From: a bacterium
GTDB lineage: Bacteria; Sysuimicrobiota; Sysuimicrobiia; Sysuimicrobiales; Kaftiobacteriaceae
Direction of reading: 5' to 3'
NCBI GenBank assembly: GCA_035763845.1
Contig: DASUAK010000022.1
Location: forward strand, 1-56,382
DNA length: 56,382 nt
In this document: piece by piece, positions 41,767 through 48,355 of the stretch
Layout: every line of letters begins with the position of its first letter
Position numbering within the stretch: position 1 is the stretch's first letter
The notes under the pieces: model-generated
What the model saw: the letters and a program-made list of their open reading frames with translations, nothing else
What the model was told of the DNA's origin: nothing
Database searches by the model: none
Translations under genes and position numbers: made by a program

Positions 41767-43062
41767 GTGAGACCTCCTCCGTTGGACGGTTCAGGTAGTC
41801 CGCTGGGCTACGTCGTTCTGGCCCTCCTGCTCCTGCTGTCCGCCTTCTTCTCCGGATCGGAGACGGCGCTGCTCGCCGCGAACAAGCTCCGGCTGCGGCA
41901 GCTGCACGAAGAGGGAAACGCCCGCGCCGGCATCGTCCGCCGCCTCCTGGACGAGCCGGGCCGCGTGCTGACGGCGCTGCTCGTCGGCAACAACATCGTC
42001 AACGTCGCCGCGACGGTCCTGGCCACGGCGCTCCTCGTGGGGCTCTGGGGGCCGCAGCGCGGGCCGCTGTACGCCCTGATCGGCATGACGCTGCTGCTCC
42101 TCGTGTTCGGGGAGATCACGCCCAAGACGTTCGCCGCGAAGTACGCGGACCGCCTGGCGATGTGGGTCTCCACCCCCGTGCGGGCGCTCACCGTGCTGCT
42201 CTCCCCCGTGATCCGCGTCCTCTCGCTCCTCAGCAACCTGCTCCTGCGGCCGCTGGGCGGCCGCGTCGACCTGGCCTCTCCGCTCGTCACCGAAGAGGAG
42301 ATCCGCCTCCTGGTGAAGATGGGCGAAGAGGAAGGGGTCATCCAGGAAGACGAGCGCGAGATGATCCACTCCATCTTCGAGTTCGGGGACACCGTGGCCC
42401 GCGAGGTGATGGTGCCGCGCATCGACATGGTCTGCGTCGCCGACACGGACAGCGTCGCCGACGCGATGCGCGTCGTGCGCGCGGAGGGGCACTCGCGGCT
42501 CCCCGTCTATCACGACTCGATCGACCAGATCGTCGGCGTCGTGCACGTGAAGGACCTGATCCCCTTCGTCCAGGACGGCCGCGGCTCGACCCCGGTGAAG
42601 GAGGCCGCGCGGGCCGCCTATTTCATCCCGGAGAGCAAGCCCCTCGACGGTCTGTTCCGCGAGATGCGCCGGCGCAAGGCGCACCTGGCCATCGTCGTGG
42701 ACGAGTACGGCGGGACGGCGGGGCTGGTCACCATCGAGGACCTGCTGGAGGAGATCGTCGGGCCCATCCTGGACGAGTACGACGTCGAGGAGAAGCTGTT
42801 CGAGGTCGTCAACGAGTCCGTGGCCCTGGTCGACGGCCGGGTCAGCCTCGAGGAGGTCAACGAGCAGCTGGGCCTGGATCTCCCCGTCGACGAGGTGGAC
42901 ACCATCGGCGGCTTCGTCTACTCGCTGCTCGGGCACGTCCCTGCCCAGGGCGAGAGCGTGACCCACGACGGCGTCGAGCTCGTCGTCGAGCGTCTGGAGG
43001 GCCACCGCGTCGCGCGGGTGAAGGTCACCCGGCGCGTTCCCACCGAGCAGCTCCGCTCGTAG
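41767..43062 (+). CDS. CNNM/CorC-HlyC family transporter-associated protein (DUF21 + CBS pair + CorC_HlyC)
   Basis: FFSGSETALLAANKLRL (DUF21), a CBS pair (AREVMVPRIDMV...HSRLPVY), and a C-terminal GESVTHDGVELVVERLEGHRVARVKV. Confidence 0.88.
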   Translation: MRPPPLDGSGSPLGYVVLALLLLLSAFFSGSETALLAANKLRLRQLHEEGNARAGIVRRLLDEPGRVLTALLVGNNIVNVAATVLATALLVGLWGPQRGPLYALIGMTLLLLVFGEITPKTFAAKYADRLAMWVSTPVRALTVLLSPVIRVLSLLSNLLLRPLGGRVDLASPLVTEEEIRLLVKMGEEEGVIQEDEREMIHSIFEFGDTVAREVMVPRIDMVCVADTDSVADAMRVVRAEGHSRLPVYHDSIDQIVGVVHVKDLIPFVQDGRGSTPVKEAARAAYFIPESKPLDGLFREMRRRKAHLAIVVDEYGGTAGLVTIEDLLEEIVGPILDEYDVEEKLFEVVNESVALVDGRVSLEEVNEQLGLDLPVDEVDTIGGFVYSLLGHVPAQGESVTHDGVELVVERLEGHRVARVKVTRRVPTEQLRS

Positions 43063-45032: not shown

Positions 45033-45070
45033 ACAAGGGAAATAGCGGGCGGGCGTGAAAAGCCCATCGG

Positions 45071-46360
45071 ATGATTTACCTGAGCCGCCTCATCAACGCA
45101 CCCATCGTGGATGCCTCAAGCGAGCGCCTCGGAGTACTGGGCGACATCGCGGTGGACGTCCGGGAGTCCCTCCCGCGCGTGACGGGGCTCTGGCTCCGGG
45201 GCGACCGCAGCCGTCTGGCCCTCATCCCGTGGGAGTCGGTCGCCCGCGTCGCCGAGGGCGAGATCCTCCTCAAGGTCGAGCGCCGTTTCCTCCAGCCCCG
45301 CCCCCTGCAGCCGGAGGAGCTGCTGCTGGCCGGCGTCCTCGACTCCCAGGTGGTCGACACCGACGGTCTGAAGGTCGTGCGCGTCAACGATCTGCACCTC
45401 ACCCCCGCCAACGGGGAGGTCCGCCTCATCGCCGCCGACGTGGGGACGATGGGACTGCTGCGCCGCCTGAATCTCGATCGCCCCGTGCAGTCCGTCGCCC
45501 AGGCGCTGCGCCGCCCGCTCTCCGACCGGGTCATCCCGTGGAAGATGGTGGCCGCCTTCGGCGGCGGGCTCACCCCGATCAAGCTCAGCGTCTCGCGCCA
45601 GCGCCTCCGGGAGATCCACCCCGCCGACCTGGGCCAGTTGATGGAGGACCTCGACCGCGACGAGCGGCTGGAGGTGATGACCGCCCTCGAGCACGAAGCC
45701 GCCGCGGACGCCCTGGCCGAGGCCGATCCCGAGGTCCAGACCGACGTGATGAAGAGCCTGCCCAGCGAGCTCGCCGCGGACATCCTCGACGAGATGTCAC
45801 CGGACGACGCCACGGACGTGCTCGAGGAGCTGCCGGAGGAGCGCGCCGAGGAGCTGATCGGGCTGATGGCCCCCGAGGAGGCGGCCGACGTCAGGAAGCT
45901 GCTCAAGTATCCCGAGGACACCGCCGGCAGCGTCATGACCACGGAGTTCATCGCCCTGCCGGAGGGGCTGACCGCGGAGGCGACGCTGGCCCGCCTGCGG
46001 GAGCTGGCCCCCGAGGCGGAGTCCATCTACTACTTCTATGTGGTCGACGGCCAGCACCGGCTGGTCGGGGTGCTGCCCCTGCGCGCTTTGATCATGGCCC
46101 GGCCGGCCCAGCCGATCGCCGAGATCATGGCCCGGGACGTCATATCGATCTTCGCCTACGACGAGATCGAGACGGTGGCGGCCGCGCTGACCAAGTACGA
46201 TCTGCTCGCCCTGCCGGTCGTGGACGAGACGGGGCGGCTGCTCGGCGCGGTCACGGTGGACGACATCATCGACGTCGTGCTGCGCAAGGGCCGGCGCCGC
46301 ATCCCCCTGCGGTTCCGCCGGCGCGGCAAGCAGCGCCGGGAGCGCGCCGGGGCGCGCTGA
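45071..46360 (+). CDS. Soluble MgtE-like protein: PRC-barrel-like N-terminus + MgtE_N domain + CBS pair, with no transmembrane pore
   Basis: HPADLGQLMEDLDRDERLEV...LPSELAADILDEMSPDDATDVLEELPEE (MgtE_N). TAGSVMTTEFIAL...LPVVDETGRLLGAVTVDDIIDV (CBS pair). Ends in a basic tail RKGRRRIPLRFRRRGKQRRERAGAR with no hydrophobic helices. Confidence 0.85.
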   Translation: MIYLSRLINAPIVDASSERLGVLGDIAVDVRESLPRVTGLWLRGDRSRLALIPWESVARVAEGEILLKVERRFLQPRPLQPEELLLAGVLDSQVVDTDGLKVVRVNDLHLTPANGEVRLIAADVGTMGLLRRLNLDRPVQSVAQALRRPLSDRVIPWKMVAAFGGGLTPIKLSVSRQRLREIHPADLGQLMEDLDRDERLEVMTALEHEAAADALAEADPEVQTDVMKSLPSELAADILDEMSPDDATDVLEELPEERAEELIGLMAPEEAADVRKLLKYPEDTAGSVMTTEFIALPEGLTAEATLARLRELAPEAESIYYFYVVDGQHRLVGVLPLRALIMARPAQPIAEIMARDVISIFAYDEIETVAAALTKYDLLALPVVDETGRLLGAVTVDDIIDVVLRKGRRRIPLRFRRRGKQRRERAGAR

Positions 46361-47604
46361 TGCGGGGGTGGCTCCAGGCGCGGTGGGCGCGCCTGACGGT
46401 GTTCCTGGCGGTGATGGGGCCGGGCATCATCACCGGGAACGTCGACAACGACGCCAACGGCATCGCGACATACTCGATCGCGGGGGCCCACTTCGGCTAC
46501 GGCCTCCTGTGGACGCTCATCCTCTCCACCATCGCCCTGGCCCTGGTCCAGGAGATGGTAGCGCGCATGGGCGCAGTCACGGGCAAGGGGCTGGCCGACC
46601 TGATCCGCGAGCGGTTCCGGGTGCGGCTGACCGTCTTCATCATGATCGTGCTCGTTCTGGCGAACTGGGCGAACACGATCGGCGACTTCGCCGGGATCGC
46701 CGGCGCGCTGGAGATCTTCCGGGTCAGCCGCTACCTCGCCGTGCCCCTGGCCGTCCTCTTCATCTGGCTGCTGGTGGTGCGGGGGAGCTACCGGGTCGTG
46801 GAGCGGGTGTTCCTCGGCGCCACGGTGATCTACGTGACGTACGTCATCTCCGCGGTCCTGGCCGACCCGCCCTGGGCTGAGGTCCTGCGCGCGGCGGTGC
46901 GCCCGACCTGGTCCTTCGACGGGACCTATGTCTCGCTGGTGATCGGGCTCATCGGCACGACGATCGCGCCCTGGATGCAGTTCTACCAGCAGGCCGCGGT
47001 CGTGGACAAGGGGATCGGCGCCCGCGACTACGGCGACGCGCGCCTGGACACCTTCCTCGGCGTGATCTCGCTGAACGCGGTGGCCTTCTTCATCATCGTG
47101 GCCTGCGGGGCGACGCTGTTCGCCCGGGGGGTGGAGGTGCGGAACGCCGCCGACGCGGCCGTGGCCCTGGCGCCGCTGGCCGGCTCGTACGCCGCGGGGC
47201 TGTTCGCGCTGGGACTGCTGAACGCTGGGCTCTTCTCGGTCGCCATCATCCCGCTCTCTACCGCCTACGCCGTGTGCGAGGCCTTCGGCTGGGAGGCGGG
47301 GCTGGACCGGACGATGCGGGAGGCGCCCGCGTTCGTGGGGCTGTTCACGGCGATGCTCGCCGCCTCGGCCCTTGTCATCCTCCTGCCGGGCGTGCCCCTG
47401 ATTCCCGTGATGCTGCTCTCGCAGGTGCTGAACGGGATGCTGCTGCCCTTCGTCCTGATCTTCCTCATTCTGCTCACCGGCGACAGGGAGATCATGGGCG
47501 CCCACCGCAACTCGCGCTTCTTCTCGGCGGTGGCCTGGGTGCTCGTCGTCGCCCTGGCCGCCCTGAGCATCCTGCTCGTCGGCGTCACGATCGTGGGAGG
47601 CTGA
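46360..47604 (+). CDS. Nramp/SLC11-family transporter with an NRMT-type (Mg2+-type) binding-site signature
   Basis: ATG 46360 overlaps the upstream TGA (TGATG). Reads GPGIITGNVDNDANGIATY in TM1 and GLIGTTIAPWMQFY in TM6, in place of the canonical DPGN and GAxxMPH. About 11 hydrophobic segments. Confidence 0.85.
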   Translation: MRGWLQARWARLTVFLAVMGPGIITGNVDNDANGIATYSIAGAHFGYGLLWTLILSTIALALVQEMVARMGAVTGKGLADLIRERFRVRLTVFIMIVLVLANWANTIGDFAGIAGALEIFRVSRYLAVPLAVLFIWLLVVRGSYRVVERVFLGATVIYVTYVISAVLADPPWAEVLRAAVRPTWSFDGTYVSLVIGLIGTTIAPWMQFYQQAAVVDKGIGARDYGDARLDTFLGVISLNAVAFFIIVACGATLFARGVEVRNAADAAVALAPLAGSYAAGLFALGLLNAGLFSVAIIPLSTAYAVCEAFGWEAGLDRTMREAPAFVGLFTAMLAASALVILLPGVPLIPVMLLSQVLNGMLLPFVLIFLILLTGDREIMGAHRNSRFFSAVAWVLVVALAALSILLVGVTIVGG

Positions 47605-47608
47605 GCAT

Positions 47609-48355
47609 TTGCCGGTCTATCGCATCGAGGGGATCGTGATCCGCCGGACCAATCTCGGCGAAGCCGACCGCATCGTCACGCTGTACACCCGAGACCACGG
47701 CAAGCTCGCCGCCGCGGCGAAGGGCGCACGCAAGCCCGGCAGCCGTTTTGCTGGCCGCCTCGAGCTGTTCACGCAGCTGCGCGCGCTGCTGGGGCAGGGA
47801 CGCACGCTGGACGTCGTCTCGCAGGTGGAGGTGATCGAGCCCTTCGCGGCCGTCCGCACCGATCTGGAGCGCCTGGGGGCCGCCTCGTTCGTCGCCGAGG
47901 TGACGGACCGGGCCACGCCCGAGCGAGACCCCCAGCCGGCGGTCTACCACACGGTGCGATCAGCCCTCGAGATGATCGCCGGGGGCGACGCCCAGTTGGC
48001 CGCGATGTGGTTCGTCGCGCAGATGCTGGCCCTGGCCGGCTACGCGCCGGTGACGGACCGCTGCACCGTCTGCGGGCGCGAACCGGCGCGGGGAGCGGCC
48101 TTCAGCTCCGCGCTCGGCGGGAGCGTGTGCGCGGCCCACCGCGAGCGGGACCCCGAAGCGGTGCCGGCGTCCCCGGTGGCGCTGGCCGCCATCGGCTTCC
48201 TGCGGGACGCATCCCCCAGGACGCTGGGCCGGGTCGCGTTCGACCGGGCCCAGCGTGCCGAGGTCGAAAGCCTCCTGCGCCGGTACGCCGAATACCGCTT
48301 CGAGGTCCGGCTGCGCAGCCCGCTCGTCAACGAGCGGCTCGGGCGGGTGCGCTAG
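47609..48355 (+). CDS. recO: DNA repair protein RecO
   Basis: VYRIEGIVIRRTNLGEADRIVTLYTRDHGKL (OB fold) and a zinc motif C..C (DRCTVCGRE...SVCAAH). TTG start with GGGAGG 8 nt upstream. Confidence 0.93.
   Translation: MPVYRIEGIVIRRTNLGEADRIVTLYTRDHGKLAAAAKGARKPGSRFAGRLELFTQLRALLGQGRTLDVVSQVEVIEPFAAVRTDLERLGAASFVAEVTDRATPERDPQPAVYHTVRSALEMIAGGDAQLAAMWFVAQMLALAGYAPVTDRCTVCGREPARGAAFSSALGGSVCAAHRERDPEAVPASPVALAAIGFLRDASPRTLGRVAFDRAQRAEVESLLRRYAEYRFEVRLRSPLVNERLGRVR

What the first reader, a model, noticed from the sequence alone, without database searches (positions are those of the whole stretch)
45071..47604. Pore-less MgtE sensor module translationally coupled to an NRMT-type Nramp: a candidate two-gene Mg2+ uptake system
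Seen in sequence, gene 1 (429 aa): PRC-barrel-like N-terminal repeats, a clear MgtE_N domain and a CBS pair. It stops in an Arg/Lys-rich tail with none of the five TM helices that form the pore in canonical MgtE. Its TGA overlaps the ATG of gene 2 (TGATG, 46358-46362).
Seen in sequence, gene 2 (414 aa): a complete Nramp/SLC11 protein whose metal site is altered. TM1 reads D-A-N-G (46450-46461) instead of DPGN. TM6 reads G-T-T-I-A-P-W (46954-46974) instead of G-A-x-x-M-P-H. These are the Asn-to-Gly, Ala-to-Thr and Met-to-Ala changes.
Established knowledge: as I recall the published work on Clostridium acetobutylicum and Eggerthella lenta NRMTs, these changes distinguish Nramp-related Mg2+ transporters from Mn2+/Fe2+ Nramps. 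In MgtE, the cytosolic N and CBS domains act as the Mg2+ sensor that gates the pore.
Inference: the stand-alone sensor gates or regulates the NRMT in trans, so the MgtE pore has been swapped for an SLC11 transporter at the operon level. I am not aware of this pairing having been described.
Basis: partly seen in the sequence, partly recalled or inferred. Interest (0 to 1): 0.7.

Follow-up and report, generated by a model that had tools for sequence, protein, structure and literature searches.

The report
Known MgtE-fragment plus NRMT transporter operon
This is a real two-gene unit, a pore-less MgtE-type magnesium-sensor protein followed by an Nramp-related magnesium transporter, but the pairing was already reported in 2014 and is common in bacteria and archaea, so this copy is an ordinary new member whose sensor function is still untested.

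Summary
Gene 1 (45071-46360, 429 aa) has PRC-barrel, MgtE_N and two CBS domains and no MgtE pore. Gene 2 (46360-47604, 414 aa) is an Nramp whose best solved relative is the Eggerthella lenta Mg2+ transporter EleNRMT (E 2e-116). It carries the same D..G / T..A metal-site residues. The two genes overlap in TGATG.

The novelty claim is wrong. Shin et al. 2014 (PLoS Genet, PMC4072509) described "mgtE-nramp operons", found the MgtE-like gene next to most NrmT genes, and proposed the same feedback-sensor idea. Their one co-expression test showed no effect.

My survey of 80 NRMT loci from species-representative genomes found the partner adjacent in 71 of 78 assessable loci, across many phyla and two archaea. 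M-box riboswitches precede some of these operons, but not this one.

What I add:
- The partner always carries a tandem PRC-barrel N-terminus.
- It keeps the cytosolic Mg2+-ligand acidic residues of MgtE.
- It replaces the acidic plug helix with a basic tail.
- The same module is found fused to MgtE pores and to MgtA-type Mg2+ P-type ATPases.

This supports a portable Mg2+-sensing regulatory module. That reading is inference, not demonstration. Whether the substrate is Mg2+ or Mn2+ remains uncertain.

The parts
45071..46360 (+). Gene 1: soluble PRC-PRC-MgtE_N-CBS-CBS protein of 429 aa, the 'MgtE-like fragment' partner of NRMT.
   Evidence: ORF. Pfam PRC, MgtE_N and two CBS stretches, with no MgtE TM domain. 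Residues 175-404 match the T. thermophilus MgtE cytosolic domain 2yvy (E 4e-48). AF2 model pLDDT 81; Foldseek TM 0.86 and rmsd 2.0 A to 2yvy.
45071..45310 (+). PRC-barrel repeat 1 (aa 1-80).
   Evidence: Pfam PF05239 E 5.5e-07 for the segment scanned alone. AF2 and Foldseek match PRC-barrel structures.
45311..45586 (+). PRC-like repeat 2 with a helical insert (aa 81-172).
   Evidence: Weak Pfam PRC match, E 0.016. Beta-rich in the AF2 model. My family HMM for this segment matches in nearly all partners. In P0392, Pfam's PRC match lies in this repeat.
45614..45919 (+). MgtE_N domain (aa 182-283). It holds D213, D245 and D249, which align with TtMgtE E59 (Mg7), D91 (Mg4) and D95 (Mg6).
   Evidence: Pfam. 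Alignment to TtMgtE and family conservation. Site definitions from PMC5882242.
45926..46285 (+). CBS pair (aa 286-405). It holds D377, D398 and D401, which align with TtMgtE D226 (Mg5), D247 (Mg4) and D250 (Mg5).
   Evidence: Pfam CBS, two stretches. Alignment.
46283..46357 (+). Arg/Lys-rich C-terminal tail (aa 405-429; 14 K/R, 1 D/E). It takes the place of the acidic MgtE plug helix that carries the Mg2 and Mg3 sites E258 and D259.
   Evidence: Sequence. The partner family has K/R or a gap at the E258/D259 columns. pLDDT is below 50 for residues 407-429.
46358..46362 (+). TGATG: the gene 1 stop overlaps the gene 2 start by one base.
   Evidence: Sequence. The same 1-nt overlap was called in relative L087 and a 4-nt overlap in L084. 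Ten of 62 surveyed loci overlap.
46360..47604 (+). Gene 2: NRMT-type (Nramp-related) divalent metal transporter of 414 aa.
   Evidence: Pfam Nramp, full-length profile match. EleNRMT 7qia at E 2.2e-116, against about 1e-29 for MntH/DraNramp structures.
46450..46461 (+). TM1 metal-site motif D31-A-N-G34. The canonical motif is D-P-G-N and EleNRMT has D-A-G-G.
   Evidence: Alignment to 7qia. Motif survey.
46954..46977 (+). TM6 motif G199-T-T-I-A-P-W-M206, identical to EleNRMT. T200 corresponds to Ele T224 and A203 to Ele A227.
   Evidence: Role of Thr224 from PMC8806188.
44148..45032 (+). Flanking gene era (GTPase plus KH domain). Its stop lies 38 nt before gene 1, which leaves no room for a riboswitch.
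   Evidence: Pfam. Sequence. No Rfam family reaches threshold anywhere in the window.
47609..48355 (+). Flanking gene recO. It starts 4 nt after the gene 2 stop, so the pair sits inside a tightly packed co-directional housekeeping gene string.
   Evidence: Pfam RecO_N and RecO_C. The same gene order is found in relative L087.

Best explanation
What is shown. This is a standard 'mgtE-nramp' operon of the kind Shin et al. described in 2014. Gene 2 is an NRMT-clade SLC11 transporter with the EleNRMT-type enlarged metal site. Gene 1 is the cytosolic sensor half of a PRC-barrel-bearing MgtE lineage, without the pore. The two genes are co-directional, overlap at stop/start, and travel together across phyla.

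What is inferred about the mechanism. NRMT takes up Mg2+, and probably Mn2+, without proton coupling, as reported for EleNRMT. Such a carrier has no cytosolic domain of its own to sense when the cell is replete. The partner probably supplies that function as a separate subunit.
- Its N and CBS domains bind Mg2+ at the conserved acidic sites equivalent to MgtE Mg4-Mg7 and close up, as in MgtE.
- In that state the protein binds the cytosolic face of NRMT and limits transport.
- The tandem PRC barrels and/or the basic C-terminal tail are the likely docking or membrane-contact elements. They replace the acidic plug helix that couples sensor to pore in MgtE.

In this genome there is no M-box riboswitch, and the pair is packed between era and recO. 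Any Mg2+ control would therefore have to act at the protein level.
For: Identity of the parts.

Conserved pairing:
- Of 80 NRMT loci from GTDB species genomes, 62 have a full-length PRC-PRC-MgtE_N-CBS gene directly upstream on the same strand. The median gap is 26 nt, and 10 overlap.
- In 4 more loci the upstream partner is cut by a contig end. In 1 it is frameshifted. In 4 it lies downstream.
- Only 7 loci lack a partner, and 2 are not assessable.
- The loci span Nitrospirota, Planctomycetes, Syntrophia, Omnitrophota, Acidobacteriota, Chloroflexi, Firmicutes, Armatimonadota, Methanobacterium and Methanocellaceae.
- Starting from gene 1 instead, homologues at 55% and 82% identity are also followed by Nramp genes, the 55% one (P0113) in an unrelated flanking context.

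Link to Mg2+: M-box riboswitches precede the partner-NRMT pair in L019, L020, L023 and L071.

Sensor competence: all six cytosolic Mg2+-ligand positions of TtMgtE are acidic in gene 1. Across the 66 full-length partner-family sequences (the window's gene 1 included), D91, D95 and D247 are kept in 55, 65 and 55 (sites from PMC5882242).

Portability of the module:
- The same PRC-PRC-MgtE_N-CBS module is fused to MgtE pores (P0258, P0341, P0375, P0277).
- It is also fused to MgtA-type Mg2+ P-type ATPases. P0327 scores 1120 bits on TIGR01524. Six more clusters, P0390-P0395, have the same architecture. P0392 is identical on three independent assemblies and lies beside mgtC.

Prior proposal of the same role: PMC4072509.

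EleNRMT transports Mg2+ and Mn2+ without H+ coupling: PMC8806188, PMC9606685 and PMC13060092.
Against: - There is no direct evidence of interaction or regulation anywhere.
- The one published test found that co-expressing the A. capsulatum partner with its NrmT in B. subtilis did not change Mg2+ rescue. A purely inhibitory partner would not be expected to improve rescue, so this is not decisive.
- That NrmT behaved as a Mn2+ importer.
- The window's TM1 variant D-A-N-G is shared with several Acidobacteriaceae/Terriglobia loci. Mn2+ preference therefore cannot be excluded here.
- I found no trustworthy natural fusion of the module to an NRMT. P0372 and P0417 look like frameshifted or chimeric assemblies.
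- Seven NRMT loci have no partner within 5 kb. Published transport work used NRMT alone, so the partner is not required for transport.
- The Mg5 residues (D226, D250) vary across the family.
Confidence: 0.55

Rival explanations
1. The pair is mainly a Mn2+ (or broader transition-metal) uptake system. The partner senses Mn2+ or another signal rather than Mg2+.
For: Shin et al. found that the A. capsulatum NrmT, which also has an adjacent MgtE-like gene and no M-box, rescued a Mn2+-uptake mutant fully and Mg2+ auxotrophy only at millimolar Mg2+. EleNRMT transports Mn2+ as well as Mg2+. The window lacks an M-box. Its TM1 D-A-N-G variant is shared with Acidobacteriaceae/Terriglobia loci.
Against: The metal-site residues that matter for Mg2+ in EleNRMT (Thr224, Gly58, Ala227) are all present. 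The partner keeps the MgtE Mg2+ ligands. Relatives of the pair are under Mg2+ riboswitch control. The same module is fused to MgtE and MgtA, which are Mg2+ transporters.
Confidence: 0.2
2. The partner is not a gate. It is a metal chaperone or buffer, or a positive assembly or activation factor for NRMT. This is the alternative offered by Shin et al.
For: Proposed in PMC4072509. The conserved acidic sites could hand over or buffer ions. PRC barrels are general protein-protein adaptor folds, for example RimM and CdpB.
Against: In MgtE the homologous domains act as an inhibitory sensor (PMC5882242). NRMTs transport without the partner. Co-expression did not improve rescue.
Confidence: 0.12
3. The partner reports energy or nucleotide status (ATP or Mg-ATP) through its CBS pair and tunes NRMT accordingly.
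For: The CBS pair of MgtE binds ATP: PDB 5x9g and 5x9h are among the best structural matches. Many CBS pairs are adenine-nucleotide sensors, and AcuB and CNNM/CorB structures appear in the same hit list.
Against: I did not test conservation of ATP-contact residues. The N-CBS interface Mg2+ ligands are the most conserved feature. This role would complement Mg2+ sensing rather than replace it.
Confidence: 0.08
4. Gene 1 is a decayed or frameshifted MgtE, and its position next to an Nramp is accidental.
For: None beyond the absence of a pore domain.
Against: Sixty-two orthologues of 398-450 aa end at the same point and sit next to NRMT. More than 100 database homologues have the same architecture and none has PF01769. 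The stop overlaps the NRMT start. The AF2 model is well folded.
Confidence: 0.01

Closest known systems
mgtE-nramp (NrmT) operons of Shin et al. 2014, e.g. C. acetobutylicum Ca_c0685 and A. capsulatum ACP2976/ACP2977
   Same: An NRMT-clade Nramp lies directly downstream of a gene homologous to the MgtE N-terminal cytoplasmic domain. The genes are co-directional and apparently co-transcribed. The same functional hypothesis was proposed: feedback sensor or chaperone.
   Different: This copy has no M-box riboswitch, like ACP2976/2977 and unlike Ca_c0685. It is embedded between era and recO with a 1-nt stop/start overlap. It carries a long, very basic C-terminal tail. The PRC-barrel N-terminus, which I find throughout the family, is not mentioned in the parts of that paper I read, and no paper in the searchable library pairs 'PRC barrel' with MgtE.
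EleNRMT (Eggerthella lenta; PDB 7qia; Ramanadane et al. 2022)
   Same: Full-length similarity at E 2e-116 and about 47% identity. TM6 GTTIAPWM is identical. The TM1 Asp and Gly and the alpha10 Gln are conserved.
   Different: TM1 is D-A-N-G rather than D-A-G-G. The N-terminus is about 24 residues shorter. EleNRMT was studied without any partner protein.
MgtE Mg2+ channel (Thermus thermophilus; PDB 2yvx, 2zy9, 2yvy)
   Same: The N domain and CBS pair match at 44-45% identity over about 230 residues, with TM-score 0.86. The acidic ligands of Mg4-Mg7 are present.
   Different: There is no five-helix pore. The acidic plug helix (E258, D259) is replaced by a basic tail. About 172 residues of tandem PRC barrel are added at the N-terminus.
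PRC-bearing MgtE channels and PRC-MgtE_N-CBS-MgtA fusions
   Same: The same four-part cytosolic module, at 35-45% identity to gene 1.
   Different: In those proteins the module is covalently attached to a Mg2+ pore or a Mg2+ P-type ATPase. Here it is a separate polypeptide next to an SLC11 carrier.

Membership tests
NRMT / NrmT (Nramp-related Mg2+ transporters, PF01566 outgroup of SLC11) | Full-length Nramp (LeuT-fold) domain. | tested here: met
   PF01566 profile positions 1-357 of 357, E 6.7e-100.
NRMT / NrmT (Nramp-related Mg2+ transporters, PF01566 outgroup of SLC11) | Closer to a characterised NRMT than to Mn2+/Fe2+ Nramps. | tested here: met
   392 bits to EleNRMT 7qia, against 106 bits or less to MntH/DraNramp/ScaDMT-type structures. 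The MntH NCBIfam models score far below their cut-offs.
NRMT / NrmT (Nramp-related Mg2+ transporters, PF01566 outgroup of SLC11) | Metal-site signature: TM1 Asp kept and Asn replaced by Gly; TM6 Ala replaced by Thr and Met replaced by Ala. | tested here: met
   D31, G34, T200 and A203 align with Ele D55, G58, T224 and A227. Roles of these residues from PMC8806188.
NRMT / NrmT (Nramp-related Mg2+ transporters, PF01566 outgroup of SLC11) | Mg2+ transport without proton coupling. | not testable with these tools
   Needs proteoliposome assays or complementation. The tested family members differ: Ca_c0685 and EleNRMT carry Mg2+, while ACP2977 mainly carries Mn2+.
NRMT / NrmT (Nramp-related Mg2+ transporters, PF01566 outgroup of SLC11) | M-box riboswitch upstream. 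This was used by Shin et al. as a marker of Mg2+ specificity and is not universal. | tested here: not met
   No Rfam family reaches its gathering score in the window, and only 38 nt separate era from gene 1. An M-box is present in 5 of 26 related loci scanned.
MgtE-like fragment partner of NrmT (Shin et al. 2014) | Homologous specifically to the MgtE N-terminal cytoplasmic domain, encoded adjacent to an NrmT gene, with no pore. | tested here: met
   Description in PMC4072509.
MgtE Mg2+ channel (TIGR00400 / PF01769) | Five-helix TM pore domain. | tested here: not met
   No PF01769 match. TIGR00400 matches only positions 20-254 of 450, at 207 bits against a cut-off of 232.75. No hydrophobic segment.
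MgtE Mg2+ channel (TIGR00400 / PF01769) | Cytosolic Mg2+-ligand residues: Mg4 D91/D247, Mg5 D226/D250, Mg6 D95, Mg7 E59. | tested here: met
   D245/D398, D377/D401, D249 and D213 in gene 1 (sites).
MgtE Mg2+ channel (TIGR00400 / PF01769) | Acidic plug helix carrying Mg2 and Mg3 (E258, D259). | tested here: not met
   It is replaced by an Arg/Lys tail. The family has K/R or a gap at these columns.
PRC-barrel domain (PF05239) | PRC-barrel fold at the N-terminus, present in tandem. | tested here: met
   Repeat 1 scores above the Pfam cut-off. Repeat 2 is only weak by sequence. The AF2 model of residues 1-175 matches PRC-barrel structures. The tandem nature is supported but not rigorous.

The most novel reading that the evidence does not exclude
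The PRC-PRC-MgtE_N-CBS unit is a portable Mg2+-sensing gate that evolution has attached to three unrelated Mg2+ import machines. It is covalently joined to MgtE pores and to MgtA P-type ATPases, and it acts as a separate, translationally coupled subunit with NRMT carriers. If the stand-alone form binds and gates NRMT in a Mg2+-dependent way, it would be the first dedicated soluble metal-sensor subunit shown for an SLC11/LeuT-fold transporter. The PRC barrels would be the docking device. Neither the PRC extension nor the MgtA fusion is mentioned in the literature I could search.
Probability: 0.4. Interest if true: 0.6.

Novelty: new member of a known kind. Interest (0 to 1): 0.3.

Why it matters
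As a discovery it matters little. The gene pair and the proposed role were published in 2014, and the pair is common.

It matters more as a pointer to an unresolved question. Twelve years on, nobody has shown what the MgtE-like partner does, and the structural work on EleNRMT ignored it. Three observations here make that question cleanly testable with mutants and pull-downs:
- The partner keeps the MgtE Mg2+ ligands.
- It always carries tandem PRC barrels.
- It belongs to a module that is also fused to MgtE pores and MgtA pumps.

They also suggest that control of Mg2+ import by one shared sensor module is more general than the MgtE channel alone.

Tried and rejected
- M-box or any other Rfam family in the window: none found.
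- Promoter and terminator scan around the pair: nothing above the shuffled background.
- Search for natural partner-NRMT fusions, using a concatenated gene1+gene2 query against 1.84 billion representative proteins. No clean full-length fusion turned up.
  - P0372 joins CBS to NRMT in one ORF but ends in frameshift-like sequence.
  - P0417 joins the module to an NRMT, but the same N-terminal part is also joined to half an AcrB in P0418. I treat P0417, P0418 and P0436 as assembly chimeras.
- hhalign of PRC repeat 1 against repeat 2: inconclusive.
- An AF2 run on a linker-fused pair was considered and dropped. The tool returns no interface metrics or coordinates, so a complex could not be judged.
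- Hattori 2009 (the source of the Mg-site mutants) is not held in the library. I took the sites from Maruyama 2018 instead.
- The ACP2977 sequence is not in the held supplements. I could not check whether the Mn2+-preferring protein shares the window's D-A-N-G motif.
- The NJ tree of sensor modules has no support values. I use it only to say that PRC-bearing modules group apart from TtMgtE, and that the MgtA-fused modules nest among the pore-bearing ones.
Full report
**1. The observation**

Gene 1 runs 45071-46360 (429 aa) and gene 2 runs 46360-47604 (414 aa). The TGA of gene 1 shares its A with the ATG of gene 2 (TGATG, 46358-46362).

Gene 1:
- Pfam finds a PRC barrel (residues 1-68), MgtE_N (182-283) and two CBS stretches, and no MgtE pore domain.
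- The NCBIfam mgtE equivalog matches only its cytosolic part, profile positions 20-254 of 450, and scores below its cut-off.
- Residues 175-404 align to the Thermus thermophilus MgtE cytosolic domain at E 4e-48.
- An AF2 model (pLDDT 81) superposes on the Mg2+-bound cytosolic domain 2yvy with TM 0.86 and rmsd 2.0 A.
- There is no hydrophobic segment, and the last 25 residues hold 14 Arg/Lys.

The second PRC repeat (residues 81-172) is weak by sequence. Pfam gives E 0.016 and hhalign against repeat 1 gives 44% probability. An AF2 model of residues 1-175 (pLDDT 85) matches PRC-barrel proteins in the PDB: CdpB1/B2, MTH1859, the reaction-centre H subunit and RimM.

Gene 2:
- It is a full-length Nramp.
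- Its best solved relative by far is the Eggerthella lenta Mg2+ transporter EleNRMT (7qia) at E 2e-116, against about 1e-29 for Mn2+ Nramps.
- TM1 D31-A-N-G34 aligns with Ele D-A-G-G.
- TM6 GTTIAPWM is identical to EleNRMT, which places Thr and Ala at the positions of Ele Thr224 and Ala227.

**2. Prior knowledge**

It is not.

Shin et al. 2014 (PLoS Genet, PMC4072509) named the NrmT clade. [quoted passage not shown] They spoke of 'mgtE-nramp operons'. [quoted passage not shown]

They also co-expressed the Acidobacterium capsulatum pair (ACP2976/ACP2977) in B. subtilis. The partner did not improve Mg2+ rescue, and that NrmT looked like a Mn2+ importer.

Later structural work on EleNRMT does not discuss the partner. 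In the searchable library only these two papers contain both 'NrmT' and 'MgtE'.

**3. How general is the pair?**

I scanned one genome per GTDB species for NRMT relatives, using the peptide patterns GTTIAPWM and CEAFGWE. At least 598 loci matched, and the best 80 were kept. I annotated them with HMMs built from the database homologues of both genes.

| Arrangement | Loci |
|---|---|
| Full-length PRC-PRC-MgtE_N-CBS gene (398-450 aa) directly upstream, same strand | 62 |
| Upstream partner cut by a contig end | 4 |
| Upstream partner frameshifted | 1 |
| Partner downstream | 4 |
| Not assessable | 2 |
| No partner within 5 kb | 7 |

For the 62 full-length upstream partners the median gap is 26 nt, and 10 overlap the NRMT start. 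So 71 of 78 assessable loci carry the partner.

The loci span Nitrospirota, Planctomycetes, Syntrophia, Omnitrophota, Acidobacteriota, Chloroflexi, Firmicutes, Armatimonadota and Zixibacteria, plus two archaea (Methanobacterium and Methanocellaceae).

The sample is biased towards NRMTs most like the query. The TM6 motif is conserved by construction of the scan. TM1 is DNDAGG in 68 of 82 sequences and DNDANG, the window's form, in 8.

Starting from gene 1 instead gives the same picture. A 55%-identical homologue (P0113) is followed by an Nramp with a 4-nt overlap in an unrelated context. An 82%-identical one (P0012, from an Armatimonadota MAG) reproduces the whole window arrangement: ybeY-dgkA-ABC-CNNM-DUF502-cdd-era-[pair]-recO-glyQS.

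Gene 1 is therefore not a frameshift remnant, and the pair moves as a unit.

**4. Evidence bearing on function**

(a) Riboswitches. M-box riboswitches (RF00380, 107-137 bits) lie upstream of the partner-NRMT pair in four relatives (L019, L020, L023, L071). One lies upstream of a partner-less NRMT (L050). That is 5 of the 26 loci scanned. The window has none. It has only 38 nt between era and gene 1, and 4 nt between gene 2 and recO.

(b) Mg2+ ligands. I took the TtMgtE Mg2+ sites from Maruyama et al. 2018 (PMC5882242). Gene 1 has an acidic residue at all six cytosolic ligand positions:

| Gene 1 residue | TtMgtE residue | Site |
|---|---|---|
| D213 | E59 | Mg7 |
| D245 | D91 | Mg4 |
| D249 | D95 | Mg6 |
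| D377 | D226 | Mg5 |
| D398 | D247 | Mg4 |
| D401 | D250 | Mg5 |

Across 66 full-length partner-family sequences (the window's gene 1 included), D91, D95 and D247 are kept in 55, 65 and 55. The Mg5 pair is variable. The plug-helix ligands E258 and D259 are replaced by Lys/Arg or are absent. The sensor interface is therefore conserved, but the element that couples sensor to pore in MgtE has been exchanged for a short basic tail. That tail is unusually long in this window.

(c) Portability. A concatenated gene1+gene2 query against 1.84 billion representative proteins, followed by domain scans, showed that the same four-part module occurs in other settings.
- It occurs in proteins of about 600 aa with an MgtE pore: P0258, P0341, P0375 and P0277. 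These keep an acidic plug helix.
- It occurs in proteins of about 1315 aa whose C-terminal 870 residues are a magnesium-translocating P-type ATPase. P0327 scores 1120 bits on TIGR01524 against a cut-off of 611.
- Six further clusters, P0390-P0395 at 57-60% identity, share the ATPase architecture.
- P0392 is found identically on three independent assemblies, next to mgtC and a ZIP gene.
- A rough NJ tree groups all PRC-bearing modules apart from TtMgtE and nests the MgtA-fused ones among the pore-bearing ones.

Covalent attachment of this module to two other Mg2+ importers is the best indirect argument that the stand-alone version acts directly on its neighbouring transporter.

**5. Most likely mechanism (inferred)**

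NRMT imports Mg2+, and Mn2+, without proton coupling, as reported for EleNRMT. It has no cytosolic domain. The partner, probably a CBS-mediated dimer like the MgtE cytosolic domain, binds Mg2+ at the N-CBS interface when the cell is replete. It then docks on NRMT through the PRC barrels and/or the basic tail and limits uptake.

In this genome, with no riboswitch and with packing inside a housekeeping gene string, this would be the only Mg2+-responsive control.

A purely inhibitory partner is compatible with the negative co-expression result of Shin et al. No step after 'the residues are conserved' has been demonstrated.

**6. Rivals**

- The system may be chiefly a Mn2+ importer. The window's D-A-N-G variant is shared with Acidobacteriaceae/Terriglobia loci, which is the group of the Mn2+-preferring ACP2977. 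I could not obtain that sequence.
- The partner may be a chaperone, buffer or activator.
- The partner may sense adenine nucleotides through its CBS pair, as MgtE also binds ATP (5x9g appears).
- The pseudogene reading is excluded by the survey.

**7. Verdict**

The finding is real and correctly annotated, but it is a further member of a published and widespread operon type. Residual interest lies in three things:
- the still-unknown function of the partner;
- the PRC-barrel extension, for which no paper in the library links PRC barrels with MgtE, and which a 2025 MgtE classification seeded on the TM domain does not cover;
- the MgtA fusions seen in passing.

Noticed in passing
P0327, P0390-P0395; loci L081-L083 (gene at 4001-7948 in L081): The PRC-PRC-MgtE_N-CBS module is fused to the N-terminus of MgtA-type Mg2+ P-type ATPases of about 1315 aa. 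P0327 scores 1120 bits on TIGR01524. P0392 is identical on three independent assemblies and lies next to mgtC and a ZIP transporter gene. I found no mention of this architecture in the searchable literature.
   Followed up: partly
P0258, P0341, P0375, P0277, P0349 (protein ids): Full-length MgtE channels of about 600 aa carry the same tandem PRC-barrel N-terminus and keep an acidic plug helix (EESAEDL). Some have a TM domain so divergent that Pfam PF01769 misses it, while TIGR00400 still aligns end to end.
   Followed up: partly
window 41767-43062 (+): A CNNM/CorC-type protein (DUF21/CNNM, two CBS stretches, CorC_HlyC), which is a candidate Mg2+ exporter, lies 2 kb upstream in the same co-directional gene string. 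The whole string ybeY-dgkA-ABC-CNNM-DUF502-cdd-era-[pair]-recO-glyQS is conserved in an Armatimonadota MAG (L087).
   Followed up: partly
L019 3431-3597, L020 3417-3587, L023 3430-3595, L050 4569-4735, L071 118-295: M-box (RF00380) riboswitches precede the partner-NRMT pair in four relatives and a partner-less NRMT in L050. The window and 21 other scanned loci have none.
   Followed up: yes
P0417, P0418, P0436, P0372: These are apparent fusions of the module to an NRMT (P0417, 967 aa), to half an AcrB (P0418) and to a MATE transporter (P0436). P0372 is a fragment with CBS, a linker of about 55 aa and NRMT in one ORF, ending in frameshift-like sequence. They probably reflect assembly or frameshift artefacts, and I did not count them as evidence.
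   Followed up: partly
P0416, P0419, P0420, P0421 (749-781 aa; P0421 from a Coriobacteriia MAG): Here the PRC-MgtE_N-CBS module is followed by about 350 residues of hydrophobic sequence with no Pfam match. This may be another divergent transporter domain attached to the same sensor.
   Followed up: no
window 46450-46461; L001, L003, L037, L052, L058, L061, L073 (DNDANG); L068, L074 (DNDPNG): The window's TM1 has Asn at the third motif position (D-A-N-G), whereas most NRMTs and EleNRMT have Gly. The variant recurs in the window's own clade and in Acidobacteriaceae/Terriglobia, the group of the Mn2+-preferring ACP2977.
   Followed up: partly
L048 3228-4989: In this Spirochaetota MAG the partner gene upstream of the NRMT is split over three reading frames. 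This is either a pseudogene or an assembly error.
   Followed up: no
window 45055-47604 (+) and other long ORFs: At 71% G+C the window yields long spurious ORFs. One is an 849-aa ORF that runs in the NRMT frame back through gene 1. The 6-frame lists of several high-G+C loci show similar artefacts. None of these is a fusion gene.
   Followed up: yes
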